Part shown: positions 28,624-47,006 of the stretch, in pieces | Numbering within the stretch: the first letter of the stretch is position 1 | How the letters are laid out: every line of letters starts with the position of its first letter | Origin: Spirochaetaceae bacterium | GTDB taxonomy: Bacteria > Spirochaetota > Spirochaetia > DSM-2461 | Length of the DNA stretch: 64,000 nt | Assembly: GCA_051531975.1 (NCBI GenBank) | Contig: JAOPTT010000006.1 | Coordinates: 462,977-526,976, forward strand | Direction of reading: 5' to 3' | The notes under the pieces: generated by a model | What the model saw: the letters and a program-made list of their open reading frames with translations, nothing else | Told to the model about the DNA's origin: nothing | Databases searched by the model: none | Translations under genes and position numbers: made by a program

Positions 28624-28658
28624 ATAAAAAAGACCATACATTAGTATGGTCTTTTTAT
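28624..28658 (-). terminator. Terminator of the tRNA-Val cluster
   Basis: aaaaagaccatac-atta-gtatggtcttttt inverted repeat immediately 3' of the last tRNA. Confidence 0.85.
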
Positions 28659-28730
28659 GAGCGAAGAGGGACTTGAACCCCCGACATTCTGCTTGTAAGG
28701 CAGACGCTCTCCCAACTGAGCTATTCGCCC
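28658..28730 (-). tRNA. tRNA-Val(TAC), copy 3
   Basis: GGGCGAATAGCTCAGTTGGGAGAGCGTCTGCCTTACAAGCAGAATGTCGGGGGTTCAAGTCCCTCTTCGCTCA folds as a cloverleaf with anticodon TAC; CCA not encoded. Confidence 0.97.
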
Positions 28731-28759
28731 ATCTATTTATAGTCTGATGAAGACTTTAT

Positions 28760-28832
28760 TGAGCGAAGAGGGACTTGAACCCCCGACATTCTGCTTGTAA
28801 GGCAGACGCTCTCCCAACTGAGCTATTCGCCC
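28760..28832 (-). tRNA. tRNA-Val(TAC), copy 2
   Basis: Identical 73-nt copy; 102-bp period. Confidence 0.97.
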
Positions 28833-28861
28833 ATCTGTTTATAGTCCGATGAAGACTTTAT

Positions 28862-28934
28862 TGAGCGAAGAGGGACTTGAACCCCCGACATTCTGCTTGT
28901 AAGGCAGACGCTCTCCCAACTGAGCTATTCGCCC
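28862..28934 (-). tRNA. tRNA-Val(TAC), copy 1
   Basis: Identical 73-nt copy; first in the transcript. Confidence 0.97.
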
Positions 28935-34669: not shown

Positions 34670-34699
34670 AATAAAAAGATGCCTAGGCACCTTTTTATT
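34670..34699 (-). terminator. Terminator after alaS
   Basis: Minus strand aataaaaagg-tgcc-ta-ggca-tctttttatt at the stop codon. Confidence 0.7.
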
Positions 34700-36479
34700 A
34701 TTTTAATACACCTTTTATTCTTCTAACACCAGCAGAAGATGATTGCTCTTTTTTTATTTTAAATGTTCCAAGAGAACCTGTATTTTCCATATGAGGACCA
34801 CCACATACTTCTAAACTAAAATCCCCCATCTGGTAAACTTTAACTTGCTCTCCGTACTTACTAGAGAAAAGAGCCATTGCACCTCTCTCTTTTGCTTGTT
34901 CAACAGTCATAGTTTCCATGGAAATTTTATGATTATCAGAAATTGCTTTATTAACCATATCTTCTACAGATTTTATCTGCTCTGGAGTCATTTTTTCAGG
35001 ATGACTAAAATCAAACCGTAAACGTTCAGATGTGATATTACTACCTTTTTGATTGACATGATCACCAAGAATAACTTTTAGAGCTTTATGAAGCAGATGT
35101 GTTGCAGTGTGATATTTTGTGGACATTTCAGAATCATCAGCTAATCCACCTTTAAATATTTTGTCGGCACCTTTTTTTGACATCTCTTTATGTTTTAGAA
35201 ATGCTTTATCAAAACCATCCCTATCAACTGTCATACCCTCTTCCTTAGCTAACTCTTCAGTTAATTCTAAAGGGAATCCATATGTATCAAAGAGATTAAA
35301 TGCTACCCTACCTGGGATTATCATTTTAGGGTTTCTTTTTAAGTTTGGCAGTAGTTTTGCAAATTCAGCTTCACCTTTTTTTAGTGTTAAACCAAATTTA
35401 TCCTCCTCAGCTTCGAAAACTGAGAATATAAATGATTTTTTCTCTAATAATTCAGGATACTGGTCTTTATACATTTCTATTACCATATCTGAAGGTTTAG
35501 AAATAAACTTGCCCTCTAATCCAAGTTTTTTTCCATGTCTAATTGCTCGTCTAAGTAGTCTTCTAAGAATATAACCTTGCCCTACATTAGAAGGTTGCAC
35601 ACCTTTCTCGTCTCCAATAATAAAAGTTGATGTTCTTATATGATCACAAATAATTCTAATTGACATATCAGTTTCTTCATCTGTTCCATATGTTTTTCCA
35701 CTTAGATCTTCTATTAATTTTATTAAAGGTTGGAAAAGAACAGTTTCATAGACAGATTTTTTTCCTTGTAACATAGTAATGGTTCTTTCAACACCCATTC
35801 CAGTATCAACACAAGCTCGTTCCATAGGGACAAAAGAACCATCTTCTTGCTTGTTATATTGCATAAATACGTTATTCCAAATTTCAAAATATTTACCACA
35901 ACTACAACCTGGTATACATTCACTTGAACATGCATCAATACCAGTATCAATAAACATTTCTGTATCAGGACCACAAGGACCAGTAGCTCCAGCAGGACCC
36001 CACCAGTTATCACTTTTGGGTAGTTTATATATTTTATTATCAGGTATACCTAGCTCTTTCCAATACCCTATAGATTCATCATCACAGGGTGCATCATCAT
36101 CGCCCTTAAAAACTGTTACTGATAACTTATCAATATCTATTCCAATAACATCTTTTAAGAAGTGGTAACTCATATTTATTGCTTCTTTTTTAAAATAGTC
36201 TCCTAATGACCAGTTACCTAACATCTCAAAAAAAGTTAAATGTGTAGCATCACCAACATCATCAATGTCACCTGTTCTAATACATTTTTGAACATTAGTT
36301 AATCTTTTACCTGAAGGGTGTTCTTCTCCTAAAATAAAAGGTACTAGAGGGTGCATTCCAGCAGTAGTGAAAAGAACTGTTGGATCGTTCTCTGGGATTA
36401 ATGATTTACCAGAGATCTCTTTGTGGTTGTTAGAGACAAAAAACTCAATATATTTTCTTTTTAATTCCTGTATATTCAT
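34698..36479 (-). CDS. alaS: Alanine--tRNA ligase, short form lacking the C-Ala domain
   Basis: DPTVLFTTAGM, FFEMLGNWS, DTGMGVER, HTATHLLH, EVCGGPH; ends at GVRRIK. Confidence 0.98.
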   Translation of the reverse strand: MNIQELKRKYIEFFVSNNHKEISGKSLIPENDPTVLFTTAGMHPLVPFILGEEHPSGKRLTNVQKCIRTGDIDDVGDATHLTFFEMLGNWSLGDYFKKEAINMSYHFLKDVIGIDIDKLSVTVFKGDDDAPCDDESIGYWKELGIPDNKIYKLPKSDNWWGPAGATGPCGPDTEMFIDTGIDACSSECIPGCSCGKYFEIWNNVFMQYNKQEDGSFVPMERACVDTGMGVERTITMLQGKKSVYETVLFQPLIKLIEDLSGKTYGTDEETDMSIRIICDHIRTSTFIIGDEKGVQPSNVGQGYILRRLLRRAIRHGKKLGLEGKFISKPSDMVIEMYKDQYPELLEKKSFIFSVFEAEEDKFGLTLKKGEAEFAKLLPNLKRNPKMIIPGRVAFNLFDTYGFPLELTEELAKEEGMTVDRDGFDKAFLKHKEMSKKGADKIFKGGLADDSEMSTKYHTATHLLHKALKVILGDHVNQKGSNITSERLRFDFSHPEKMTPEQIKSVEDMVNKAISDNHKISMETMTVEQAKERGAMALFSSKYGEQVKVYQMGDFSLEVCGGPHMENTGSLGTFKIKKEQSSSAGVRRIKGVLK

Positions 36480-36512: not shown

Positions 36513-37634
36513 TCAATAGATCCAATCATCATCACCAAGGATTCTGAGTTCTCCAGATTCTTCTTTATTTCTAATTAAATTTATAAAATCTTTAGTCATG
36601 CGATCAGCATCACTTTTTTTAACAAGTCCAAGGATTTCCATTTCAGCTTCTACTAAAAGCCTTCGACCTTCAGACATAGCACCCCAGATTCGCCCTTGAA
36701 TATCCTTTGATTCACCTTTAATCAAAAAAACTAAATCTTGGTCTGTAATTTCTTGAATTATTTTTTGAAAATCAATAGGTTCAATATTATAAATTATATC
36801 AATCGTATATAACCTGTCTCTAATGGTTTCTCCTAAATCAGGATCAGAACTTTCAATATGTTGTAATATATTGTCTTCAGATGATCTATCCATATGTTTT
36901 AGAATATCTGCTAATGCCCCTCTACCATCTAATTCCACACTATCTGTATTTCCCATCTTAATAATTTTTTCAGTTAAACTTTCAGAAATGATACTAATTA
37001 CTTGTGGGCTTACTTGTTTTAATTTTGACATTCTTAAAACAATTTCTTTTTGTTGATCTGGTGGTAACGATTCAATTATAGGGGAAGAATATATTGGAGA
37101 TAAATGATGTAAAACTATAGTTAAGACTGAAACACTCTCTTTTCGTAATACCATCATTCTTTGAGTGAAATCTAAATCATTTAAAAATGCAAACGGTTTA
37201 TCAGCACTATCAGGAACAGCTTTATATAATAGTTCATTACCTTTATCCTGGCCAAATGCTGAAATTAAAATACTTCTAGCAGTTTCAACCCCACCTTGGT
37301 TTCTATTATATGCAGTACTATCTTTACCAAACTCTTGTAAAAGTAGATACGCCTCACTTTTACCAACTCTATCAATCTTGGTGATTTCCATTGATACTTT
37401 TTCAATTTCATTTGGTGGCAAGTGTGATATAACTTTCGAAGCTTCATCTGTACCTAAAATCAAAAGTAATTTTGCAACTTTTGTATATTTATTTTCTTCT
37501 TTTGTAGTTTTTATTAAACCTTGTTTAGGTTGTGGGGTTTTATGGATTACAGGTGTTTCTAAAGGATCAGTTTTAACTAGTGATCCTGTAGAAACTGATT
37601 TATATGCCTGAATACCTCTTTTATACTGATTCAT
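36513..37634 (-). CDS. fliG: Flagellar motor switch protein FliG paralog (FliG1-like)
   Basis: KVAKLLLILG, GGVETARSIL, PFAFL, GRGALADILKHMD. Divergent, and outside any flagellar operon. Confidence 0.85.
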   Translation of the reverse strand: MNQYKRGIQAYKSVSTGSLVKTDPLETPVIHKTPQPKQGLIKTTKEENKYTKVAKLLLILGTDEASKVISHLPPNEIEKVSMEITKIDRVGKSEAYLLLQEFGKDSTAYNRNQGGVETARSILISAFGQDKGNELLYKAVPDSADKPFAFLNDLDFTQRMMVLRKESVSVLTIVLHHLSPIYSSPIIESLPPDQQKEIVLRMSKLKQVSPQVISIISESLTEKIIKMGNTDSVELDGRGALADILKHMDRSSEDNILQHIESSDPDLGETIRDRLYTIDIIYNIEPIDFQKIIQEITDQDLVFLIKGESKDIQGRIWGAMSEGRRLLVEAEMEILGLVKKSDADRMTKDFINLIRNKEESGELRILGDDDWIY

Positions 37635-37704: not shown

Positions 37705-37717
37705 TATATTCGTAAAT

Positions 37718-37790
37718 GCCGCTGTAGCTCAGTCGGTAGAGCAGGGGACTGAAAATCCCTGTGTCAAGAGTTCAAGTCTCTTTGGTGGCA
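37718..37790 (+). tRNA. tRNA-Phe(GAA)
   Basis: GCCGCTGTAGCTCAGTCGGTAGAGCAGGGGACTGAAAATCCCTGTGTCAAGAGTTCAAGTCTCTTTGGTGGCA; anticodon GAA; followed by TCA rather than CCA. Confidence 0.96.
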
Positions 37791-37792
37791 TC

Positions 37793-37828
37793 AAGAGTTA
37801 AAAGATCTAATCTTTTAACTCTTTTTTT
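37793..37828. terminator. Hairpin between tRNA-Phe and the convergent operon
   Basis: aagagttaaaagat-cta-atcttttaactctt followed by a T-tract on the plus strand; overlaps the stop of the convergent gene. Confidence 0.7.
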
Positions 37829-39015
37829 ATGTACTTTATAATTGCAGGAGTAAGTCTCTTAACAGTTTCTTCGATGAGTTCCCTGGAATTATCAATAGAA
37901 TAATCTTGCACTTCAACCTGAGGAACGATAGGATCTCCCATACCAACAAGTCCCATTAAAAGAGAATCAGTACCACTAGAACTACCTGAAGAATGATTTG
38001 CTGCTGCTTTTAATAGGCTAGTTAACTCACTTTCATCAGGATTAATAATTAAATCACCTTCATCATTTTTATAATTCTCAGCTTCTTGTTGTAATAAAAA
38101 ATCATCACCTGCATCAAAAGAGTCAATAATTAACTGTATAATCTGCATATCTTTAGCAAATACAAAACCCATATAAAATATAATTACTGTTAAAATAACT
38201 AAAAGAGTTGTTAATAACGACAACATAATACTATTTAAATAATCAGTAATTTGACCCTGTTCCATTATTATTCCAGTTATTGGAAGTATTAAATTATCAA
38301 TAGGTGAATATACGCCCTCTTCTATCTGCATAATAAGATAAGTATCTAATTCACTGCTTATTAGATCAGATATAATAGAATAGTCAGTAATCTTTTGTCC
38401 TTCCCTAGAAAAGAGTATAGAGTCATTTGTATAAAACAATATATCTTTTCGATTTTTAACTAACGTTAGGATTTCTCCATTGGCTGCAATATAATCAGAT
38501 TCCAAAATTCTAGATTCTTGCATCTGTAGACTACTTGTTGCTTTATTATCTATAACGATAATCCCTACAACAAATATCATTACTATTGTGACACCAATTT
38601 TCATAATTCTATCTTGGATCCAAATAGAGTCTGATTTCATCTTTTTTAAGAAACTAAAAACTCTTAAAAATCTAAGTATTCTTATTATTTTAAAGAAACG
38701 TCCAACCTTAATAATCTTAAAAACTGCAAATAGTGGTGTATTATCTAAGAAGAAAAATATTCCTGGGAGACTGGCTAAAAAGTCCACCCAACCATAACCT
38801 TTAGTTAGATATAATATAGGTTTATAGCTGATTATTCTTAATGCAAAATCAAAAACGAATATTACCGAAATAATTTTATTAGGTAATAAGACATAGGCTT
38901 TCAGAAAAGTATATTCACAAAACAGACCTATTATAGATATTATTATAAGAAAAGGATTAATTATATCTAAAATTTTTACAATATTTTTAAAATTATCTCT
39001 AGGATGTATAACCAT
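37807..39015 (-). CDS. Voltage-sensor-domain (Ion_trans S1-S4) membrane protein without a pore loop
   Basis: S2 F-x-x-D-x-x-x-R (IFVFDFALR), S3 WVDFLASLP, S4 KxxKxxRxxKxxRxxRxxR; then TM, ~105-aa soluble loop, TM, and a cytoplasmic tail. Confidence 0.8.
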   Translation of the reverse strand: MVIHPRDNFKNIVKILDIINPFLIIISIIGLFCEYTFLKAYVLLPNKIISVIFVFDFALRIISYKPILYLTKGYGWVDFLASLPGIFFFLDNTPLFAVFKIIKVGRFFKIIRILRFLRVFSFLKKMKSDSIWIQDRIMKIGVTIVMIFVVGIIVIDNKATSSLQMQESRILESDYIAANGEILTLVKNRKDILFYTNDSILFSREGQKITDYSIISDLISSELDTYLIMQIEEGVYSPIDNLILPITGIIMEQGQITDYLNSIMLSLLTTLLVILTVIIFYMGFVFAKDMQIIQLIIDSFDAGDDFLLQQEAENYKNDEGDLIINPDESELTSLLKAAANHSSGSSSGTDSLLMGLVGMGDPIVPQVEVQDYSIDNSRELIEETVKRLTPAIIKYIKKELKD

Positions 39016-39032
39016 TTGACTCTCCGCTAAAT

Positions 39033-40205
39033 CTAAGATCTATAATCATTTTGAAAGATATCTTTTACAGATATCAAATCTTTTTTATTTGACATAAAAC
39101 GCTTTATTGCATTTTGAACTTCTAAGGACTCACTTTTATATGAAGATATTTTTCTAGAAGCAATACTTATAGCATTTTGAACTAATAATTGTCTTCTATT
39201 ATCTGCACTATATAACTTTTCTAGTTTCAACCTTTGTTCTAAAGGACTATTGTGATATTTAGCTGAAATTTCAAATATTTGAGCAGCTAATATAACAGAA
39301 AAAGTATGAGCAAAAAGCATAGCAACATAATAAACACTTCGAACACGACCAATTCTATCAGTTATAAATGCTTCTAAATTAGAGCTTAGATTAAGATTAC
39401 TTGTTTGGGCTGTAGTAGAACCATGAAATAAAATATAGAAGCCCATATATGTAAATATTTCTTGAGCATCATCCCCTCTTTGACTAATAAAAAAAGTCAT
39501 GAAATCTGTCAGAAAGTCAATAAATTTCTTATTGTTTCTACCTAGACAGAGTGCTAATACTTGTGGATTAATACGTCTTTTTTTAATTGCATCGGTAATT
39601 ATTGATGAAACAGCATCTTCATTAATACTTTTACCATTAATTTTTTTAATATTATGAGCATTTAGGTTAAATGCCTTTACTGCTAATTGGTATAGTTCAG
39701 TTGGATAATCGATATCTTCATTAACTATACTATTAGATGTGTTATTTGTTGAAGAATTACTAAGCTGATTTATCTTTATAAGATTGTAATATAGCAGTAC
39801 ATCATTAGAACTTAACCCAATAGATTCTTTTATTAATGTATCCATTATATGTTTCTGTTTTATACTATCAAGTTTAACTAAATCTAATCCTTCTAAGTGG
39901 GATCTAAAAATATCTTTATTAATCAAAATTTTCTCTTCTGGTAAAAATGAAGAGAGCTGTTCTTCCGTTGTTATATCTCTACTAAAACCTCGACTTAATA
40001 ACATTGGTTGACTTATATCTGCATTATTATTCCCACTCTCTCTACATTTATTGTTCCAAATATCTTGAAATAATTTATATGAACTTTTGCTGTCACCTGG
40101 AAGAATTGTTGCAATTTTTTTAAATAATTGTTCAGCGCTTATCTTTTCACTTAATATAGAGTCAGTTAAATAACTTCCTAATTGGACAATATCTTTCTTA
40201 TCCAT
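39033..40205 (-). CDS. Hypothetical protein (390 aa, likely soluble and helical)
   Basis: Long ORF translationally coupled (TAATG) to the kinase gene; no recognised motif. Confidence 0.75.
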   Translation of the reverse strand: MDKKDIVQLGSYLTDSILSEKISAEQLFKKIATILPGDSKSSYKLFQDIWNNKCRESGNNNADISQPMLLSRGFSRDITTEEQLSSFLPEEKILINKDIFRSHLEGLDLVKLDSIKQKHIMDTLIKESIGLSSNDVLLYYNLIKINQLSNSSTNNTSNSIVNEDIDYPTELYQLAVKAFNLNAHNIKKINGKSINEDAVSSIITDAIKKRRINPQVLALCLGRNNKKFIDFLTDFMTFFISQRGDDAQEIFTYMGFYILFHGSTTAQTSNLNLSSNLEAFITDRIGRVRSVYYVAMLFAHTFSVILAAQIFEISAKYHNSPLEQRLKLEKLYSADNRRQLLVQNAISIASRKISSYKSESLEVQNAIKRFMSNKKDLISVKDIFQNDYRS

Positions 40206-42166
40206 TAAGCTTTTAATAAAATTCTGAATTCACAGAATTTCCCTACTGAAGATTTAATATTTAGTTTACCACCTGCATTATCTACATAATTTTTTATCAC
40301 ATTCATACCTACCCCTTGCCCTGCGAGATTATCAATATCATCTACTGTTGAAAACCCAGGGTTAAATATTAACTTAACTGCATCAGAAGACTTTAATTTT
40401 CTTGCTATTTCTACTGTTATTATATCTTTTTTTATAGCAGATTTAACAATTTTATTAAGATTTAAGCCTCTTCCATCATCTCTATAGATAAATTCTAATA
40501 CATTTTCCTTCTTTTTTAAAGAAATAAATATCTTTCCAGTAGGTTCTTTACCTTTTGAAAATCTTTCTTCAACATCTTCTATACCATGAGCAACAGAATT
40601 TCTAACAAATTGGTTTATAGAATCTTTGAATAATCTCCTATATTTTTCTGGAATTAATTTATTATCATATTGTGTTACATCTAGCTCTAACTCTCTATTA
40701 TATTCAACACCTAGTCGAACTAAAGATTTTTTTAATGACTCTTCAAAAATATATTTTTTATTTTTTATCTCTCCGCCAGCTTGTCCTTTGAAAGCAATAA
40801 TTTTTTCAATTAAAACATTAATTCCATCTAAATCATGTTTTAAATCTGCTAAATTAACTGTTAGTTTTAAAAGTTCACGCCATGTTGGTTTAGTATTACG
40901 TAATTCTTTAATATAGTCTTCAAAATCTTTTAGTTTATTTGCAATAGTTTTTAACCCTAATAACATAGCGTTACCTTTAATACTATGAACAGATGCAAAA
41001 ATATGGTTTATCAATTTACTGGTTTCATTAGTTTCAACTTTAAGGAAATCGTTTATTATACTTATTTCATCATGAGAATCTTTTAAAAATTCTTCCATTA
41101 GCTCTGGGTTAACATGGATTATTTGGAATAAACTTTCCATATTTTTTAAACTTTCATTTTCCTCTCTTGTTAACCGTTCTTCTAATAATACTTGAGTTGT
41201 AACATCTTTAAAAAGACCTAATATCTGTATCTCTCCATTTTTTAATAATATTCTTTCAAAATTGAATTCTAACCAAACTTGTGATTTCTCTGCATTTTCA
41301 CCATCGAAGTTCATTAATACTTTTTCAATTGGGTTAATTGAAGTTAAAAGTGTTGGATTAACTGTTTTATTATAAAACAATTCTAGATAATCTTTAGTTG
41401 CAATATAATCCCTTTGTGGGAGTTTACCTTTAATCAATTCCATAAAAGAATGGGATACAGTTGTTGATCCAAAAAGATTATTAAAATATGTTGATCGTTC
41501 ATCTGCTAAATTTAGATTTTCATCCAATAAAAATATACCCTGTTTAACATTATTTAATATCATAGTAGTTTGTCGTCTTTTAGCTACGAGGTTATCTGAA
41601 GTTTGCTCTAATTTATTAAATGCTTGAATACGTATTAATTCAAACGCAACAGTAAAAAGAGTTACTCCAATATATGCTCCGATAGCCCTACCACCCATTG
41701 CGACATTAACAGGGAGAGCTTCTAAACCAGTAATTTTAAATATAAGGAAATATGCTAGAATTCCAAAAATGAGGGTTAAAATGGATCCATGGATAATTCC
41801 AAGAAAAAATATCGATACTAACGGGAATAACATGATCCAAAAATAACCAGCTTTTTCTGATCCACTAGTGAATATCAACAACGCAAACAGTGTAAAAGCA
41901 ATATAACTTACATAAGTAGTACCTATTATTAGTTTTTTTGTTATGCCTACTAAAATTATAGAAATAGTTATTGTTATGGCTGTGATCCCTGTGAAAATTG
42001 AAATCAGGTAGGATTCCTCTATTATATCAACGACTGTAAAAGTTATTAAAATGATAACACTTATTAACGAAATACTACTTAAAACGGCACTTCGAGATCT
42101 TTCTTTTAAACCAGAATTTTCGGTACAACCAATATATAAAAATGATAAAAATGGATTCTTTTTCAC
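40205..42166 (-). CDS. Membrane-anchored CheA-like histidine kinase (TM region, PAS-like, Hpt, HATPase; no CheW domain)
   Basis: About 6 TM helices; ILNNVKQGIFLLD; Hpt VHSIKGNA; VRNSVAHGIE, DDGRGL, IFNPGFST, GQGVGM. The protein ends right after the ATPase domain. Confidence 0.88.
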   Translation of the reverse strand: MKKNPFLSFLYIGCTENSGLKERSRSAVLSSISLISVIILITFTVVDIIEESYLISIFTGITAITITISIILVGITKKLIIGTTYVSYIAFTLFALLIFTSGSEKAGYFWIMLFPLVSIFFLGIIHGSILTLIFGILAYFLIFKITGLEALPVNVAMGGRAIGAYIGVTLFTVAFELIRIQAFNKLEQTSDNLVAKRRQTTMILNNVKQGIFLLDENLNLADERSTYFNNLFGSTTVSHSFMELIKGKLPQRDYIATKDYLELFYNKTVNPTLLTSINPIEKVLMNFDGENAEKSQVWLEFNFERILLKNGEIQILGLFKDVTTQVLLEERLTREENESLKNMESLFQIIHVNPELMEEFLKDSHDEISIINDFLKVETNETSKLINHIFASVHSIKGNAMLLGLKTIANKLKDFEDYIKELRNTKPTWRELLKLTVNLADLKHDLDGINVLIEKIIAFKGQAGGEIKNKKYIFEESLKKSLVRLGVEYNRELELDVTQYDNKLIPEKYRRLFKDSINQFVRNSVAHGIEDVEERFSKGKEPTGKIFISLKKKENVLEFIYRDDGRGLNLNKIVKSAIKKDIITVEIARKLKSSDAVKLIFNPGFSTVDDIDNLAGQGVGMNVIKNYVDNAGGKLNIKSSVGKFCEFRILLKA

Positions 42167-42184
42167 TTATGTTACATCCTTTAA

Positions 42185-42655
42185 TTACTTTATGATATTT
42201 TCTAAACCTACTGATACATAAAAAATCCCCTCAGAGAGTTCAAAAGGAATTGTTATTATTGGAATATTACTTGAGGGCCATGCTATTTTATGTGATGTCC
42301 CTTGCACAATTGATGGAAGAGAAATAACTAGTCTAAATTGTTCTAAACCTTTCTTAGCATTTCCTGCAATAATATTAACAACTTCTCCTGTAGAATCAAT
42401 TACATCATCATCAATATCTAGTATATCATAACCAACTAACTTCTGGGTTAACATAATAATTAGTTCTTTTGGAAAACTTAATGTTATGACACCTTTAGTC
42501 TCTCCTGCAATTCCAATAACTGCCGAAAGATCCCATCCTAAATCCTCTTCTTTACTAAATAGAAATGGATTTTTCATTATTGGTGTTTCATTATAAAATT
42601 CTTTAAAAATATTAATTGTAGCCTCAATAAAAGGTTCAATGTATTTTGTATCCAT
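42185..42655 (-). CDS. cheX: Chemotaxis phosphatase CheX
   Basis: YIEPFI, SAVIGIAG, active-site GEVVNIIAGN, ISLPSIVQG. Confidence 0.92.
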   Translation of the reverse strand: MDTKYIEPFIEATINIFKEFYNETPIMKNPFLFSKEEDLGWDLSAVIGIAGETKGVITLSFPKELIIMLTQKLVGYDILDIDDDVIDSTGEVVNIIAGNAKKGLEQFRLVISLPSIVQGTSHKIAWPSSNIPIITIPFELSEGIFYVSVGLENIIK

Positions 42656-42663
42656 GAGCTGTC

Positions 42664-43041
42664 CTACCTTATAGTATCTAATACCTGTGTTATTTTATTT
42701 ACTAAATTACCTTCGCCTAATGGCTTTATTAAATAGTCGTTAACTCCTGCTTTAACAGCTTCTATTACATTATATTTTGCTGCTTCAGAAGTGATCATGA
42801 TTATAGGAAGTTTAGAATATTTTGCCATTGCTCTAAGTTCTTTTACAAGATCAAGACCATTTAAGTGTGGCATATTCCAATCAACAAGTAAGATGTCTAT
42901 TATTTCTCTTTCTAATATATTAAAAGCGTCTATTCCATTAGATGCTTCTACAAATTCAAAAGAATAAGATTTGCTTTGTAATAGTGTATTTTTTACAATA
43001 CTACGCATTATCCGGGAATCATCAACAACTAATACTCTCAT
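42664..43041 (-). CDS. cheY: Single-domain CheY-like response regulator
   Basis: VVDDSRIMR, LVDWNMP, PIIMITSE, GVNDYLIKP. Confidence 0.9.
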   Translation of the reverse strand: MRVLVVDDSRIMRSIVKNTLLQSKSYSFEFVEASNGIDAFNILEREIIDILLVDWNMPHLNGLDLVKELRAMAKYSKLPIIMITSEAAKYNVIEAVKAGVNDYLIKPLGEGNLVNKITQVLDTIR

Positions 43042-43100
43042 AATTATATTTTCCTATTAATATGATTTTTTAAAATACTAGCATATAAAATTAATAACGG

Positions 43101-46100
43101 TCAAATAGTTCTTTCTATTTCATCTAATAACTTTTCAAGTCTAGTATCTGAAACTTTGACTGGAAGTTTTATATTCCCAGCAAATATAGATACACGATAT
43201 TCCTCTAACATGGTTTTATATTGAATAAGCAGATCTAATTTATCTATTGAAGCTGCAGGTGATAGATTGGACATAATATAGTCATATTCATCGTGAAACC
43301 ATTTAATGTCCTTTTGCCTCTCTAAATCTTTAATTAAATTCAGAGATCCTTTATTAATTCTATCGTTTAATCCTTTTAGATATCTTAATAAACTAGTAAA
43401 AGAAATACTTGAAACTATAAAATCTTTAGGCATTAATCTTTCTAATTCGAAGTTTACATCTTCTAAAAACAGTTTTCCTCTTTTTATTAGATTTTTTGAT
43501 ACCCTAGAAAGGCTTTCTCTTACAAGTTTATATTCTGTAAATACTTCAGAGATATCATCATTTAAGTCATTTGCTTTATTTAATAGTAAAGGAGATAATT
43601 CTTCAATAAAATTATTAAATTCAACTTTATTACGTATTTCAATATTAATGTTATTTTTTATTAATCTATAAAAGAACTGAAAATAATAAATTTTCTCTCC
43701 ATCAAAATAGTTAGTTAAAAACCTATTTTCTGCTGTTAATTGAACTTCTGATTTAATTGCTTTTATTTGCTTATTTAAACTATTTAATACTAATAATGCG
43801 GTGCCATCTTTATGTATTCTTTTAGCTTCTTTTTCTCGATCGAATAACAATAATGACGTTGTCTCTTCTACAATTTTTAACCCAGGATAATATTGTATAC
43901 CTTTAATGATAATACTTTTCTCAATTGGTTCGTTAAAATCCCATTTTGTAATATTCGTTCTTTCATAATTTTCTTTAGCTTTTTTTATCTTTTTAATATT
44001 ATGAAGTCTATTAGAATAATCATCATATAATATTTCACCATCTCTACTAGATTTAATTTCCTTACCTCTTGTATCTAATATTGCGATTCGAACTCTTAAG
44101 TGTTCAGGTAATTTTGTATCATCCCATGTATTAACAGGAATATTAAATCTCCAGTTCTGATAAATATAATTACTTAATTGAGTATGAAGGCTTGAAGAAG
44201 TTATCTCCATGTTTTTGATTATATCCTCTGCAGTACTATTAATAGGAATGAGTTTTTTTCTATATTCTTTTGGTAATCCTTTTATTAAAGCAGTAATTCT
44301 CTCTTTTAAAAGGCCTGGTACAGCCATCTCTAGTCGTTCTTTAGGAACATCCATAGCTACAGTAGCTGGAACTTTTATAGTAACTCCATCTAACTCTTTA
44401 CCAGGATCAAAATGATAATCAATTTTAAAGGTAGATTCACCTATGGTATAGGTATCAGGAAATTCATTTAATCCTCCAGGAATTTCTGAATAAAGATCTT
44501 CCTCTTTCATTCTAAGGAATTTATCTCCACCTTGTTTTCTAATTAGAGATGTTAACTCGTTTAAAGAAGAGACATTTTGAATTCTAGAGTCATAAAAATT
44601 ATCTATAGAACTTTGATCTACTAGTATGTTTCTTTGTCTTAATTTATCTTCCATTTTTGATATTTTTTCGATTAAAGTTAGGTTAAAATCTAAAAAACCA
44701 TACTCTTTTCTCTGTTTTGGTGTTAGTTCACCTTCAACAAGGCATGATTTGATAAATATTTTTGTAGATTCTTGTTTATTATATTGTCCATAGGATACGT
44801 CTCGATTATAAACAATAGGTAATCCAAAAAGAGATACCCTTTCTAATGCCCTAACCTCACCTAACTCAACACTATAATAGGGTGCTGAGTAACTTTTTTT
44901 ACATAGATTTTCACCTAACCTCTCAAGCCACTCTACATCAATATTACCTACAGTTCTTAAAAACAGTCTACTAGTTTTAACTTGTTCATATGAGCAAACC
45001 CACTCTCCTGATGAGTTGAAAATACCAGACCCTGGATAAATCATACCCTCTCGATCTTTAGTTAACCTGTAAAAATTTTTCTCTTTTTTTAATGCTATGG
45101 TACTTAAATACCCTGCTAATATTGACCTATGGATTCTTCCATAATTATTATTTAGTTCTTTATTTGTCCAGTCTTCTTTAGGTAATGTTGTCTGTTTTAT
45201 ATTGTTTTCTTTGTTTTGTACTAAAAGCTGTCTATAAATATCACTCCACTCTCTCATTCTTTTATACGATATAAAATTTGTTTTACACCATTTTTTAATT
45301 TTTCCATTAGTACTGCTTTTTTGTTTCTTCTGTAACTGGTATTCATTCCAAATATTTAAAAGAGTTAAAAAGTCTGATTCAGGATGTTTAAATTTTGCCT
45401 GTCTCTCATCTGCTAGCCCTGATTGTTCTTTTGGTCTATTTCTTGGGTCATGCACGGATACTACTGCAGCTAATGCTGTTATTTCTTCAACACAACCCTC
45501 TATTTTTGCTTCTAATATCATTCTAGAGTCTCTTGGATCAATTGGATATTTCGACATTATTAAACCATATTGAGTCAAATGCCACAGATCTTTTACTTTT
45601 TTTATTGCTCCTAGCTCAATTAAAAGATCATATCCATCTTTAATTCCTGAGTTTGAAGGAGAATCTATAAATGGAAAGTTTTTTACATCATTTAATTTTA
45701 ATGCAATCATTCTCATGATAACTTCGGCTAAATTGGTTCGTTGAATTTCTGGCGGAGTAAACAGTGATCTTTTATTAAAATCAGCTTCTGAATATAAACG
45801 AATACAGATACCATTTTCTATTCTACCACAACGTCCTTTTCTCTGGTCAGCACTACTACGAGATATTGGGGATACAGGTAAACCCATTGTTCTTGTTTGT
45901 GGAGAGTACTGAGAAATTCTTGCAACACCAGAGTCAACAACATATTTAATACCTGGAATAGTCAAAGATGTTTCTGCTATATTTGTAGATACTATAACCT
46001 TACGACTATTTGTTTGTTTAAATACAGCTCTTTGTTCACTTTGAGTTAATCTAGCATACAGTGGTAGCAGTTCTACTTTACCATTATATCTTTTAGTTAA

Positions 46101-47006
46101 CTGATCGATACAGTCTCTAATATCCTGCTCAGTTGGTAAAAATGTTAAAATATCTCCACTATTTGTACTATCTAATAAATCAGAGGTTGCATTAGCAGTT
46201 CTTTCACCAAAACTTAATTCTAAATCCTCTTTCTCTTCTTCTTTGTAAATAACTTCAACAGGATATGTTCTTCCAGTTACTTCAATAACAGGAGCATCAT
46301 TAAATGCCTTTGAAAATTTCTCCGTATCAATTGTTGCGGAAGTTATAATAATTTTAAGATCTTTTCTTTTTTTTATTAAGTCTCGTAAGATACCAATAAT
46401 AAAATCGATATTAAGACTTCTTTCATGTGCTTCATCTATAATGATACAGTCATAGTTATTTAAAAATCTATCACCCTGAGTTTCTGCTAATAACATTCCG
46501 TCTGTTAAAACTTTTATATATCCGTCTTTAGAAAATTCTTCTCCAAATCTAATTTTATATCCAACATCTTTTCCAAGTGGAGTTTTTAACTCCTCAGCAA
46601 GTCTAGTTGCAACAGATATGGCAGCTATTCTTCTAGGTTGTGTACAAGCGATAATACCACTCTCTCCACAACCTGCCTCAAGGCAAAATTTTGGTATCTG
46701 AGTTGTTTTTCCTGATCCAGTCTGACCAGAAATAATTACAACCTGGTTTGTTCTAATTGTTTTTACAATTTCATCTCTTCTTTTTGTTACTGGTAGATCA
46801 TTATTGTAATACAATTTAGGTTTTTTATTTACTCTGGATATTCTTAAATCTATTGACTTTTGAATTCTTTTATCTAGTTCTAAAAGTTTTAATTCATTAG
46901 GATTTTTTTCAAGTTTTTTAAGATCTCTGAATAGATAATACCAATCCCTTTTATATACTTTATTAAGTTTATTATAAACTTTGTTATTGTTATTCATAAA
47001 ATACAT
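43101..47006 (-). CDS. hrpA: ATP-dependent RNA helicase HrpA
   Basis: GQTGSGKTTQ, TQPRR, DEAHERS, SAT, TNIAETSLT, QRKGRCGR; C-terminal LEEYRVSIF. Confidence 0.97.
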   Translation of the reverse strand: MYFMNNNNKVYNKLNKVYKRDWYYLFRDLKKLEKNPNELKLLELDKRIQKSIDLRISRVNKKPKLYYNNDLPVTKRRDEIVKTIRTNQVVIISGQTGSGKTTQIPKFCLEAGCGESGIIACTQPRRIAAISVATRLAEELKTPLGKDVGYKIRFGEEFSKDGYIKVLTDGMLLAETQGDRFLNNYDCIIIDEAHERSLNIDFIIGILRDLIKKRKDLKIIITSATIDTEKFSKAFNDAPVIEVTGRTYPVEVIYKEEEKEDLELSFGERTANATSDLLDSTNSGDILTFLPTEQDIRDCIDQLTKRYNGKVELLPLYARLTQSEQRAVFKQTNSRKVIVSTNIAETSLTIPGIKYVVDSGVARISQYSPQTRTMGLPVSPISRSSADQRKGRCGRIENGICIRLYSEADFNKRSLFTPPEIQRTNLAEVIMRMIALKLNDVKNFPFIDSPSNSGIKDGYDLLIELGAIKKVKDLWHLTQYGLIMSKYPIDPRDSRMILEAKIEGCVEEITALAAVVSVHDPRNRPKEQSGLADERQAKFKHPESDFLTLLNIWNEYQLQKKQKSSTNGKIKKWCKTNFISYKRMREWSDIYRQLLVQNKENNIKQTTLPKEDWTNKELNNNYGRIHRSILAGYLSTIALKKEKNFYRLTKDREGMIYPGSGIFNSSGEWVCSYEQVKTSRLFLRTVGNIDVEWLERLGENLCKKSYSAPYYSVELGEVRALERVSLFGLPIVYNRDVSYGQYNKQESTKIFIKSCLVEGELTPKQRKEYGFLDFNLTLIEKISKMEDKLRQRNILVDQSSIDNFYDSRIQNVSSLNELTSLIRKQGGDKFLRMKEEDLYSEIPGGLNEFPDTYTIGESTFKIDYHFDPGKELDGVTIKVPATVAMDVPKERLEMAVPGLLKERITALIKGLPKEYRKKLIPINSTAEDIIKNMEITSSSLHTQLSNYIYQNWRFNIPVNTWDDTKLPEHLRVRIAILDTRGKEIKSSRDGEILYDDYSNRLHNIKKIKKAKENYERTNITKWDFNEPIEKSIIIKGIQYYPGLKIVEETTSLLLFDREKEAKRIHKDGTALLVLNSLNKQIKAIKSEVQLTAENRFLTNYFDGEKIYYFQFFYRLIKNNINIEIRNKVEFNNFIEELSPLLLNKANDLNDDISEVFTEYKLVRESLSRVSKNLIKRGKLFLEDVNFELERLMPKDFIVSSISFTSLLRYLKGLNDRINKGSLNLIKDLERQKDIKWFHDEYDYIMSNLSPAASIDKLDLLIQYKTMLEEYRVSIFAGNIKLPVKVSDTRLEKLLDEIERTI

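What the first reader, a model, noticed from the sequence alone, without database searches (positions are those of the whole stretch)
37807..43041. Five-gene receptor-less chemosensory-like operon containing a voltage-sensor protein
Seen: five co-oriented genes with gaps of 8, 18, -1 and 17 nt, in the order cheY, cheX, TM-anchored CheA-like kinase, unknown 390-aa protein, voltage-sensor-domain protein. No MCP, cheW, cheR or cheB is in the operon or the window. Established: CheA, CheY and CheX form a complete kinase-regulator-phosphatase cycle, but canonical CheA is soluble and needs CheW and MCP arrays. Inference: this is a self-contained pathway whose input arrives through the kinase's own TM region and/or the S1-S4 protein (membrane potential or ion-motive force), with the 390-aa protein as adaptor or CheY target. 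I know of no described system with this composition.
Basis: partly seen in the sequence, partly recalled or inferred. Interest (0 to 1): 0.85.

Follow-up and report, generated by a model that had tools for sequence, protein, structure and literature searches.

The report
Chemotaxis-like operon joined to voltage-sensor pair
A marine spirochaete has placed a receptor-less CheY/CheX/CheA-like kinase unit directly in front of a pore-less voltage-sensor protein and its private partner, two units that are separate in other spirochaetes, which hints at a possible route from membrane voltage to swimming control.

Summary
Five co-oriented minus-strand genes have gaps of 8, 18, -1 and 17 nt: cheY, cheX, a membrane-anchored CheA-like kinase (MASE6 + Hpt + CheA-type ATPase, no CheW-like domain), an unknown 390-aa protein, and a protein with a true S1-S4 voltage-sensor domain but no pore.

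The locus is not one indivisible system. It is two separately conserved modules.
- **Trio (cheY-cheX-kinase):** it stands alone in 5 other Spirochaetia loci.
- **Pair (390-aa protein + voltage-sensor protein):** it is obligate, found in the same 10 of 401 genomes and adjacent in 17 of 18 evaluable loci. Outside the genus Thiospirochaeta it has no che neighbours.

The two modules abut only in this genus.

The pair is a divergent version of a much commoner, undescribed spirochaete two-gene module. That module is an unrelated ~310-aa partner plus a ~371-aa pore-less voltage-sensor protein, present in 171 of 401 genomes.

Evidence for functional coupling of voltage sensing to the kinase-CheY circuit:
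- the operon fusion, with a TAATG stop/start overlap;
- phyletic co-occurrence, 8 of 10 pair genomes against 23 of 391 others.

This makes coupling plausible (about 0.45) but unproven. No described system of this composition turned up in the literature searches.

The parts
43075..43104 (-). Promoter-like site (TTGACC, 18 nt, TAGTAT, preceded by TG) in the 59-nt gap between the hrpA stop and the cheY start.
   Evidence: 9 of 12 consensus positions; such sites are as frequent in shuffles; sequence. It is a consensus match only.
42664..43041 (-). cheY: single-domain response regulator, 125 aa. It has D7, D8, D54 (in DWNMP), T84, Y103 and K106.
   Evidence: residue numbers counted from the translation. 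Orthologues lie next to cheX and the kinase in L071-L074 and L055 at E 3e-25 to 1e-45.
42185..42655 (-). cheX: CheY-P phosphatase family, 156 aa, with an E91-x-x-N94 motif.
   Evidence: PF13690 at 73 bits; NCBIfam CheX_Thtogales E 1.2e-14, below its cut-off; motif.
40205..42166 (-). Membrane-anchored CheA-like histidine kinase, 653 aa. About six TM helices (MASE6), an unassigned middle region at 190-350, Hpt with H394, and CheA-type ATPase (P4). There is no P5/CheW-like domain.
41612..42097 (-). MASE6 membrane domain of the kinase (residues 24-185).
   Evidence: PF20966 at 33.3 bits against a cut-off of 27.4; hydropathy segments between residues 24 and 180.
40844..41104 (-). Hpt (P1-like) domain of the kinase, residues 355-441, with His394 in HSIKG.
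   Evidence: PF01627 E 2.1e-7; CheA P1 structure 2ld6 E 7e-4; motif.
40211..40621 (-). CheA-type catalytic (P4) domain, residues 516-652, with the N, G1, F and G2 boxes present.
   Evidence: PF02518; CheA P4 structure 1i58 E 1.6e-25; motifs.
39033..40205 (-). 390-aa all-helical protein of an unnamed family (P390). It is the obligate partner of the voltage-sensor protein. Its start overlaps the kinase stop (TAATG).
37807..39015 (-). Pore-less voltage-sensor protein, 402 aa. It comprises S1-S4, S5, an extracytoplasmic alpha/beta domain, TM6 and an acidic cytoplasmic tail.
38635..38997 (-). S1-S4 voltage-sensor domain (residues 7-127). S4 carries K100, K103, R106, K109, R112, R115 and R118. F53, D56 and R60 lie in S2 and D78 in S3.
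   Evidence: Model helices; invariant columns; charge positions; alignment to the Kv2.1 voltage-sensor domain at E 1.1e-5.
38260..38472 (-). Predicted extracytoplasmic alpha/beta domain (residues 182-252) in the place where a channel would have its pore loop.
   Evidence: strands at 192-252, block pLDDT 81-90. Sequence conservation here is poor.
37810..38157 (-). Cytoplasmic tail (residues 287-402), net charge -13, with a conserved membrane-proximal motif and a conserved C-terminal helix.
37793..37823 (.). 14-bp-stem hairpin overlapping the last codons of the voltage-sensor gene, just after the tRNA-Phe gene on the opposite strand. It is the likely end of the transcription unit.
37717..37792 (+). 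tRNA-Phe (GAA) on the opposite strand. It separates the cluster from the fliG-like gene.

Best explanation
The locus is a genus-specific fusion of two independently conserved signalling modules into one probable transcription unit.

**Module A (cheY-cheX-kinase).** This is a receptor-less, CheW-less phosphorelay. A kinase anchored by a six-helix MASE6 domain autophosphorylates His394 of its own Hpt domain using a CheA-type ATPase. It passes the phosphoryl group to a canonical CheY, and CheX removes it. The likely output is flagellar motor switching (inferred).

**Module B (P390 + voltage-sensor protein).** The membrane protein is a complete S1-S4 voltage sensor. Its pore loop is replaced by a small extracytoplasmic alpha/beta domain, and its acidic cytoplasmic tail is read by the dedicated cytoplasmic partner P390 (inferred). 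It would turn changes in membrane potential, perhaps combined with a periplasmic cue, into a protein-protein signal.

In Thiospirochaeta that signal is proposed to reach the kinase-CheY circuit, so that membrane voltage biases swimming reversals.

My odds for each step:
- two-module composite: 0.9
- real voltage sensing: 0.7
- P390 binds the sensor's tail: 0.6
- coupling of module B to module A in this genus: 0.45

The confidence given below is that of the last, weakest step.
For: **Composite origin (shown).**
- P390 and the voltage-sensor family occur in exactly the same 10 of 401 Spirochaetia genomes.
- They are adjacent, in the same order and strand, in 12 of 12 evaluable genome loci (14 examined, 2 cut by contig ends) and in 5 of 6 evaluable metagenome loci (8 examined, 2 cut).
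- che genes flank the pair only in the same-genus loci L057/L033 and L032.
- The trio stands alone in L071, L072, L073, L074 and L055.

**Voltage sensor (shown at the sequence and fold level).**
- Seven K/R residues at every third position of S4.
- Invariant F53/D56/R60 and D78, aligned to the Kv2.1 voltage-sensor domain.
- VIA Z 8.0-8.6 to solved voltage-sensor domains.
- Pfam Ion_trans matches in relatives cover only profile positions 3-151 of 241.
- The model puts strands, not a re-entrant loop, between S5 and TM6.

**Partner (inferred).**
- Strict co-occurrence of the two families.
- A conserved acidic tail (net -13) against a basic P390 (net +5) whose invariant residues include K92, K144, K316, K327, K330, R337 and K368.
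- The two sensor families are homologous only up to the start of the extracytoplasmic domain (hhalign 99%, columns 24-211), and each has its own unrelated partner.

**Coupling (circumstantial).**
- Gaps of 24 nt or less in three genomes at 55-65% protein identity.
- A TAATG stop/start overlap in the window.
- Kinase, P390 and sensor hits whose longest-contig lengths coincide for five contigs (34552, 12363, 9279, 26041 and 3667739 bp).
- 8 of 10 pair genomes hold the MASE6-type kinase, against 23 of 391 others. By genus this is 4 of 6 against 17 of 149, Fisher p 0.003.
- A kinase whose sensor domain is wholly membrane-embedded is the kind that tends to take its input from another membrane protein (general knowledge).
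Against: - Outside the genus the two modules are never neighbours. They lie about 700 kb apart in G250, about 715 kb in G178, about 380 kb in G271, and on different contigs in G236.
- 23 genomes have the kinase without the pair, and G212 has the pair without a MASE6-type kinase.
- Co-occurrence is confounded by kinship. The trio is common in the very families (f18, f34, f41) that hold the pair.
- Within the genus the whole block hrpA...alaS is syntenic, so conserved adjacency there says little.
- The commoner sister pair (P310 + VSD-371) has no che neighbours in 20 wider loci.
- Nothing here shows transcription, binding or phosphotransfer.
Confidence: 0.45

Rival explanations
1. The two modules are functionally independent and became neighbours by rearrangement in the Thiospirochaeta ancestor. 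The trio senses something through MASE6 and its middle region. The voltage-sensor pair serves a different end, such as ion or K+ homeostasis or envelope signalling. Co-transcription, if any, is incidental.
For: - Separate locations in all other lineages.
- Each module is complete without the other in many genomes.
- Neighbours of the pair elsewhere include an SthK-like cyclic-nucleotide-gated K+ channel, directly upstream in L066, L068, L069 and L070, and a Kup K+ transporter in L080.
- The sister pair has its own conserved non-che neighbourhood.
Against: - The tight spacing and TAATG overlap.
- The excess of kinase-bearing genomes among pair holders.
- The four channel-adjacent loci are related MAGs with shared synteny, so they amount to about one observation.
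Confidence: 0.4
2. One reading: all five proteins form one indivisible, self-contained pathway in which the 390-aa protein is an adaptor to the kinase, or the target of CheY-P.
For: One probable operon in at least three genomes and no MCP or CheW in the window.
Against: P390 follows the voltage-sensor protein, not CheY or the kinase, across genomes. The trio works without it in 5 loci. The P390 family has no fused forms pointing to a che role: 57 clusters, none longer than 431 aa.
Confidence: 0.1
3. The 402-aa protein still forms, or gates, an ion pathway. It could conduct through the voltage-sensor domain itself as Hv1 does, or act as a subunit of a channel, with P390 as its cytoplasmic regulator. 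In that case it is a conductance rather than a signalling sensor.
For: It derives from 6-TM channels. S5 and TM6 are retained. There are K+-transport neighbours in some lineages.
Against: - No P-loop or Ion_trans_2 match.
- The S5-TM6 span is a poorly conserved alpha/beta domain.
- The strongest conservation outside S1-S4 is in the cytoplasmic tail.
Confidence: 0.15

Closest known systems
Canonical chemotaxis core (MCP-CheW-CheA-CheY with CheX phosphatase, as in spirochaetes and Thermotoga)
   Same: It has a CheA-type Hpt and P4 catalytic domain. Its CheY carries the residues listed for E. coli CheY (passage of PMC2829493). It includes a CheX-family phosphatase.
   Different: There is no P5/CheW-like domain and no P2 or P3 detected. 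The kinase is an integral membrane protein (MASE6). No MCP, CheW, CheR or CheB lies in the operon.
Non-classical CheA homologues of Rhodobacter sphaeroides (CheA3 = P1+P5, CheA4 = P3-P5)
   Same: These are CheA relatives that lack some of the five domains (passage of PMC2829493).
   Different: Those proteins keep P5 and work in receptor clusters. This kinase keeps P1 and P4, lacks P5 and has its own membrane domain.
Voltage-gated cation channels (Kv2.1, Kv1.2-2.1 chimera, NavAb-type, SthK of Spirochaeta thermophila)
   Same: It shares the S1-S4 fold, the S4 charge ladder and the S2/S3 counter-charges. An SthK-like gene lies next to the pair in four loci.
   Different: It has no pore loop or selectivity filter. 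An extracytoplasmic alpha/beta domain lies between S5 and TM6.
Non-channel voltage-sensor proteins of eukaryotes (Ci-VSP, Hv1, SLC9C1)
   Same: Here too a voltage-sensor domain drives something other than a canonical pore. Ci-VSP and SpSLC9C1 are among the structural matches (ranks 5 and 36).
   Different: In those proteins the effector is fused (a phosphatase or an exchanger) or is the voltage-sensor domain itself. Here the effector candidate is a separate protein encoded upstream. The protein is bacterial and carries an extra sensor-like module.
Sensor kinases with a TM / extracytoplasmic PAS-like domain / TM input module and accessory membrane partners (WalK-YycH)
   Same: The second half of the sensor has the same layout: a long helix, a small alpha/beta domain outside, then a long helix back. 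A WalK-YycH model is the second Foldseek match (E 0.03, prob 0.98).
   Different: No kinase or other output domain follows, and the match is weak. A HAMP-like look of the tail, judged by eye, was not confirmed by Pfam (0 of 40 members).
P310 + VSD-371 pair of Spirochaetia
   Same: It has the same gene order, with the partner first, and the same sensor topology. The sensors are homologous over S1-S5 (hhalign 99%).
   Different: The partner is unrelated (hhalign prob 0.8%) and the tail is different. It is present in 171 of 401 genomes against 10, with only G212 holding both. It is never seen next to che genes.

Membership tests
CheA (five-domain chemotaxis kinase, P1-P5 as defined in PMC2829493) | P1: Hpt domain with the phosphorylatable histidine | tested here: met
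   PF01627 E 2.1e-7 at residues 355-441; H394 in HSIKG; CheA P1 structure 2ld6 E 7e-4.
CheA (five-domain chemotaxis kinase, P1-P5 as defined in PMC2829493) | P3: dimerisation domain | tested here: inconclusive
   No H-kinase_dim family at E <= 0.01. Matches to CheA structures start after their P3. Only about 47 residues lie between Hpt and P4. No structure was predicted.
CheA (five-domain chemotaxis kinase, P1-P5 as defined in PMC2829493) | P4: CheA-type ATP-binding catalytic domain | tested here: met
   CheA P4 structures at E 1.6e-25; 11 of 11 matches among solved structures are CheA. The N, G1, F and G2 boxes are present.
CheA (five-domain chemotaxis kinase, P1-P5 as defined in PMC2829493) | P5: CheW-like receptor-coupling domain | tested here: not met
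   The protein ends at residue 653, right after P4. No PF01584 was listed. None of the genome's 16 CheW-domain matches lies in the window.
Chemosensory pathway in the classical sense | MCP and CheW encoded with the kinase | tested here: not met
   None among the 48 window ORFs scanned and none beside the trio in L071-L074.
CheY | Single REC domain with the acidic pocket, the phospho-acceptor Asp, and the Thr, Tyr and Lys | tested here: met
   PF00072. D7, D8, D54 (in DWNMP), T84, Y103 and K106 were counted from the translation (motifs). The residue list is from PMC2829493. The NCBIfam CheY equivalog cut-off of 189 bits is not reached (100.3 bits).
CheX phosphatase | CheX domain with the E-x-x-N catalytic motif (motif recalled) | tested here: met
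   PF13690 at 73 bits against a cut-off of 27; E91-V-V-N94.
Voltage-sensor domain | Four-helix S1-S4 bundle with basic residues at every third S4 position | tested here: met
   Helices. K100, K103, R106, K109, R112, R115 and R118. VIA Z 8.0-8.6 to solved voltage-sensor domains. PF00520 at 44.4 bits.
Voltage-sensor domain | Charge-transfer centre: an aromatic plus an acidic residue in S2 and an acidic residue in S3 (layout recalled from Shaker and Kv) | tested here: met
   F53, D56, R60 and D78 are invariant in 40 sequences and align to the Kv2.1 motifs.
Voltage-gated ion channel (6-TM, Ion_trans) | Pore domain: S5, re-entrant P-loop with selectivity filter, S6 | tested here: not met
   Ion_trans matches stop at profile position 151 of 241 or earlier in 11 relatives, and there is no Ion_trans_2 match. 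The model has an alpha/beta domain at 182-252 followed by one continuous helix at 254-302.
MASE6 membrane sensor domain | Match to PF20966 above the gathering score | tested here: met
   33.3 bits against 27.4; also found in L071 and L054.
HAMP domain (for the sensor's tail) | Match to PF00672 | tested here: not met
   0 of 40 members of A2 and 0 of 9 members of A4 at E <= 10. The resemblance is by eye only, and the Atlas leads score 0.83-0.85.
HD / cyclic-nucleotide phosphodiesterase fold (for P390) | Conserved His/Asp metal ligands and a clear fold match | tested here: inconclusive
   Best VIA Z is 6.6 (rmsd 6.0 A, 186 aligned), in the range the tool calls uninformative for helical proteins. 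There is no invariant His or Asp among the 26 invariant columns. Foldseek found no match at E <= 0.001.

The most novel reading that the evidence does not exclude
Free-living spirochaetes carry a dedicated, pore-less voltage sensor with a private cytoplasmic partner that converts changes in membrane potential into a biochemical signal. In Thiospirochaeta this device is wired directly to a CheW-independent CheA-like kinase, CheY and CheX.

That would give a molecular basis for the membrane-potential-dependent chemotaxis reported for Spirochaeta aurantia in 1981-83. I saw only the titles, in a reference list; the content is recalled. It would also offer a fast electrical way to coordinate the flagellar motors at the two ends of a long cell.
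Probability: 0.2. Interest if true: 0.9.

Novelty: new variant of a known kind. Interest (0 to 1): 0.7.

Why it matters
Voltage-sensor domains that drive something other than a pore are known from a few eukaryotic proteins. A bacterial example with a separate partner protein has not, as far as my searches show, been described.

One form is in 171 of 401 genomes and the window's form is in 10.

The Thiospirochaeta fusion to a kinase-CheY-CheX unit supplies a concrete, testable hypothesis for what the sensors talk to. A related species, T. perfilievii, has a named genome in the public records.

If the link holds, it reopens an old, unresolved question with defined genes: does membrane potential carry chemotactic or pole-to-pole signals in spirochaetes?

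Separately, the trio defines a CheA-type kinase that needs neither CheW nor receptors.

Tried and rejected
- **Complex prediction.** The sensor (A2) with P390 (A1) scored 0.12 and 0.23, under the mark of 0.32. The tool gives no verdict, so this is evidence neither for nor against binding.
- **Expression.** No RNA holder is listed. The only holder is the probable source DNA run, and a metatranscriptome of the same sample holds next to none of the words. I did not lay reads.
- **P390 fold and family.**
  - Pfam and NCBIfam gave nothing.
  - Foldseek against the PDB gave no match at E <= 0.001.
  - VIA wide gave a best Z of 6.6 to phosphodiesterase/HD-like helical domains, which I judged uninformative.
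  - The PDB sequence profile gave only one hit, at E 0.017.
  - The Atlas gave no usable hit.
  - The profile search of 1.84 billion representatives found 57 clusters, none with an added domain.
- **P390 against P310.** hhalign gives prob 0.8% and E 0.068, aligning only a short EEQ-L..FL stretch. I rejected this as homology.
- **HAMP in the sensor tails.** Pfam did not find it.
- **Positional equivalence of the two pair types.** The large gene upstream in f18 loci is a BcrAD/DUF2229 protein. The ~1600-aa gene beside the P310 pair has no Pfam family. No link was shown.
- **Literature.**
  - MASE6 gave one irrelevant paper.
  - The voltage-sensor/chemotaxis/kinase and non-channel voltage-sensor searches listed nothing relevant.
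  - In the VSD review PMC13661669, the passages shown mention bacteria only for NavAb.
  - The spirochaete and voltage-sensor search found only SthK papers.
  - The CheA-like/transmembrane/P5 search found nothing matching.
  - The two S. aurantia papers are not held.
- **Earlier findings of this scan.** Nothing by place, sequence or words.

Full report
**What is in the sequence.**
Five ORFs lie head to tail on the minus strand between 43041 and 37807, with gaps of 8, 18, -1 and 17 nt.
- Each ORF is preceded by a Shine-Dalgarno-like site.
- The kinase stop and the next start overlap as TAATG.
- Upstream, hrpA (43101-47006) ends 59 nt before cheY, and a promoter-like site fills that gap.
- Downstream, a tRNA-Phe gene on the other strand and a 14-bp-stem hairpin that overlaps the last codons close the unit. 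A divergent fliG-like gene follows.

**The five products.**
- **CheY.** A canonical CheY by its residues (D7, D8, D54 in DWNMP, T84, Y103, K106). It scores below NCBI's equivalog cut-off.
- **CheX.** A CheX-family phosphatase with E-x-x-N.
- **Kinase.** A MASE6 membrane domain, an unassigned middle region, an Hpt domain with H394, and a catalytic domain that matches only CheA among solved structures (11 of 11; P4 at E 1.6e-25). It stops there, with no CheW-like P5.
- **390-aa protein (P390).** It matches no family.
- **402-aa protein.** It has an S1-S4 voltage sensor:
  - seven basic residues at every third S4 position;
  - invariant F53/D56/R60 in S2 and D78 in S3;
  - a profile match to the Kv2.1 sensor at E 1.1e-5, with 8 of 8 PDB matches being Kv channels;
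  - a predicted structure (pLDDT 78) whose residues 4-144 superpose on the sensors of Nav, Kv, Cav and Ci-VSP at Z 8.0-8.6.
  - hmmscan of the protein listed no family, but the six-frame genome search gives Ion_trans at 44.4 bits over profile 5-140.
  - It is the only voltage-sensor match in the genome. The only other Ion_trans hit covers the pore part of the profile.

No MCP, CheW, CheR or CheB domain is in the window. The genome holds 16 CheW-domain and 59 MCP matches elsewhere.

**The sensor has no pore.**
- In relatives, Ion_trans matches end at or before profile position 151 of 241.
- In the model, S5 is a long helix leading out of the membrane to a small alpha/beta domain (residues 182-252). 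One continuous helix (254-302) returns through the membrane. Cytoplasmic helices follow.
- The weak Foldseek list is headed by Kv channels and a WalK-YycH model. This fits a voltage sensor fused to a sensor-kinase-like input module that lacks any output domain.
- The extracytoplasmic part is poorly conserved. The membrane-proximal cytoplasmic stretch and the C-terminal helix are highly conserved, and the tail is strongly acidic.

**Two modules, not one system.**
The genus is Thiospirochaeta. G001 is "same genus", and its 3,667,739-bp contig is the one that the protein tables name as T. perfilievii.

In G001 and G002 the whole block hrpA-cheY-cheX-kinase-P390-sensor-fliG-alaS is syntenic with short gaps.

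Beyond the genus the picture splits.

*The pair.*
- A profile of P390 finds 10 of 401 Spirochaetia genomes, and a profile of the sensor finds the same 10.
- The two genes are adjacent in 9 of these. In the tenth they lie at two contig ends.
- In named genome records the sensor gene follows P390 in 12 of 12 evaluable loci (14 found, 2 cut).
- In metagenome contigs it does so in 5 of 6 evaluable loci (8 found, 2 cut). In L084, P390 is followed by a convergent 421-aa ORF instead.
- Several of these loci are near-duplicates (L058/L082/L083 and L063/L075/L085), so the independent count is smaller.
- Only the same-genus locus has che genes beside the pair.
- Elsewhere the neighbours vary: OmpA, sugar kinases, MaoC, DM13, a sigma-54 regulator. 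Exceptions are an SthK-like cyclic-nucleotide-gated K+ channel directly upstream in four related MAGs and a Kup K+ transporter in L080.

*The trio.*
- cheY-cheX-kinase occurs in that order, without the pair, in L055 (another genus of the same family) and in L071-L074 (two other families). L054 has a lone kinase and L056 is cut.
- Its neighbours there are unrelated to chemotaxis.
- In G250, G178 and G271, which hold both modules, they lie about 700, 715 and 380 kb apart. In G236 they are on different contigs.

**A wider family found on the way.**
- Weak hits of the sensor in related genomes led to a second family of ~371-aa proteins (A4). These have the same topology and Ion_trans matches over the sensor part only (9 of 9).
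- The second family is homologous to the window's family from S1 to the start of the extracytoplasmic domain (hhalign 99%) but has a different tail.
- It is present in 171 of 401 Spirochaetia genomes and 78 of 155 genera, mostly as one copy.
- Within the window's own family it is in 33 of 37 genomes, but in none of the Thiospirochaeta genomes. Only G212 holds both kinds.
- Immediately upstream and co-oriented lies a ~310-aa protein (A3) in 30 of 30 loci. The same holds in all 20 wider loci (8 of those genomes are also among the 30). In that script both sensor profiles hit these ORFs and the label printed was the first listed.
- The ~310-aa partner has no Pfam family and no detectable homology to P390.
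- Its neighbourhood is also conserved:
  - a divergent ~1500-1700-aa protein without Pfam in 18 of 20 loci;
  - DUF503 in 11 and a ComFB-domain protein in 8 of the 18 loci whose ORFs I sent (63 of 90 ORFs);
  - no che genes.
- "Partner gene, then pore-less voltage sensor" is therefore a general and apparently undescribed theme of spirochaetes. The window's pair is its rarer variant, and in this genus it seems to stand in for the common form.

**P390.**
- The family is small: 37 hits in the word-indexed search and 57 clusters among 1.84 billion representatives.
- It is confined to proteins of 431 aa or less, with no fused domains. A subgroup of ~220-250-aa proteins corresponds to the C-terminal half only.
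- The model is confident (pLDDT 84) and all-helical, with uncertain domain packing (pTM 0.57).
- No fold assignment survived scrutiny.
- Its invariant residues are rich in Lys, Arg, Asn and Tyr, and it has one borderline hydrophobic helix at 290-313.
- That it binds the acidic tail of the sensor is an inference from strict co-inheritance, from complementary charge, and from the fact that each sensor family has its own tail and its own partner.

**Is voltage sensing coupled to the kinase?**

For:
- the fusion into one tight gene string in at least three genomes at 55-65% identity;
- five sets of kinase, P390 and sensor hits whose longest-contig lengths coincide;
- the TAATG overlap;
- a kinase whose input domain is buried in the membrane;
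- genome co-occurrence. By my reading, 31 of 401 genomes have a kinase matching from the MASE6 part onward. That includes 8 of the 10 pair genomes, against 23 of 391 others. By genus it is 4 of 6 against 17 of 149 (Fisher p 2e-8 and 0.003).
- G271 has a trio whose kinase has a different N-terminus.

Against:
- the tests ignore kinship, and the trio is common in the families that hold the pair;
- most kinase genomes lack the pair. By my tally, the 31 kinase genomes comprise 8 with the P390 pair, 9 with the P310 pair and 14 with neither;
- the modules are far apart wherever they are not fused.

I put coupling at about 0.45 and independence at about 0.4.

**Comparison with what is known.**
- The trio works like a chemotaxis phosphorelay but fails the membership test for CheA (no P5) and for a chemosensory pathway (no MCP or CheW).
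- The R. sphaeroides non-classical CheAs keep P5 (passage of PMC2829493).
- The sensor works like the voltage-sensor domains of channels and of Ci-VSP or SLC9C1 but is not a channel by the pore criterion.
- My literature searches and the passages I saw of a 2025 review of voltage-sensing domains show no bacterial pore-less sensor with a partner, and no voltage sensor in a che operon. Subscription journals are largely outside the library.
- Goulbourne and Greenberg's papers on membrane potential and a voltage clamp in Spirochaeta aurantia chemotaxis are known to me by title from a reference list. Their content is recalled and the papers are not held. They are the reason a voltage sensor beside cheY in a free-living spirochaete deserves attention.

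**Verdict.**
The locus is a genus-specific fusion of a receptor-less CheA-like/CheY/CheX unit with a variant of a widespread, uncharacterised spirochaete voltage-sensor pair. Interest is 0.7. The composition is new and points to a testable link between membrane voltage and motility, but the link rests on gene order in one genus and on co-occurrence among relatives.

Noticed in passing
L088-L137 (for example L118:5989-8041): A widespread two-gene module in Spirochaetia: a ~310-aa protein without a Pfam family directly upstream of a ~371-aa pore-less voltage-sensor protein. It is in 171 of 401 genomes. It is usually flanked by a divergent ~1500-1700-aa protein without Pfam, a DUF503 gene and a ComFB-domain gene.
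   Followed up: partly
L066:8667-9977, L068:8538-9848, L069:8528-9838, L070:8649-9980; L080:1-1941: In four related MAGs an SthK-like cyclic-nucleotide-gated K+ channel gene (Ion_trans + Ion_trans_2 + cNMP_binding) lies directly upstream of the P390/sensor pair. In one metagenome contig a Kup K+ transporter does.
   Followed up: partly
window 36513-37634 (-): A divergent FliG paralogue (373 aa, below the TIGR00207 cut-off). The genome has three FliG_C matches and the best one is on another contig (C17). This gene is syntenic with the cluster only within the genus.
   Followed up: partly
G000:C9:65070-66476 and similar places in G001, G003, G006, G019, G029: A second class of ~920-1030-aa proteins shares the middle region, Hpt and CheA-type ATPase of the kinase (about 30% identity over residues 186-650) but has a different N-terminus.
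   Followed up: no
L084:1314-2492: This is the only P390 relative seen without a voltage-sensor gene after it. A convergent 421-aa ORF follows, and a DUF4389 protein lies upstream.
   Followed up: partly
P0160, P0164, P0167, P0168, P0172, P0176: Complete ~225-250-aa proteins that correspond to the C-terminal half of P390 only. Their gene neighbours could not be looked up.
   Followed up: no
L037 (G014:C529:1-2430): A 2.4-kb contig in a genome of another genus carries a kinase fragment 64-65% identical to the window's. No P390 or sensor of the window's type was found in that genome (88% complete). This may be incompleteness or a stray contig.
   Followed up: no
window 34698-36479 (-): The alanyl-tRNA synthetase is only 593 aa: a tRNA-synt_2c core plus the SAD domain at the very end. 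It is conserved at the same length in G001.
   Followed up: no
window 53491-55392 (+): A 7TMR-DISM membrane domain fused to an adenylate/guanylate cyclase domain. Cyclic-nucleotide signalling is thus present in the same genome region.
   Followed up: no
window 28657-28934 (-): Three tandem tRNA-Val (TAC) genes.
   Followed up: no
window 37807-39015 (-): hmmscan of the translated protein listed no Pfam family even at E <= 10. The six-frame genome search scored the same stretch at 44.4 bits for PF00520. The reason for the discrepancy between the tools is unexplained.
   Followed up: no
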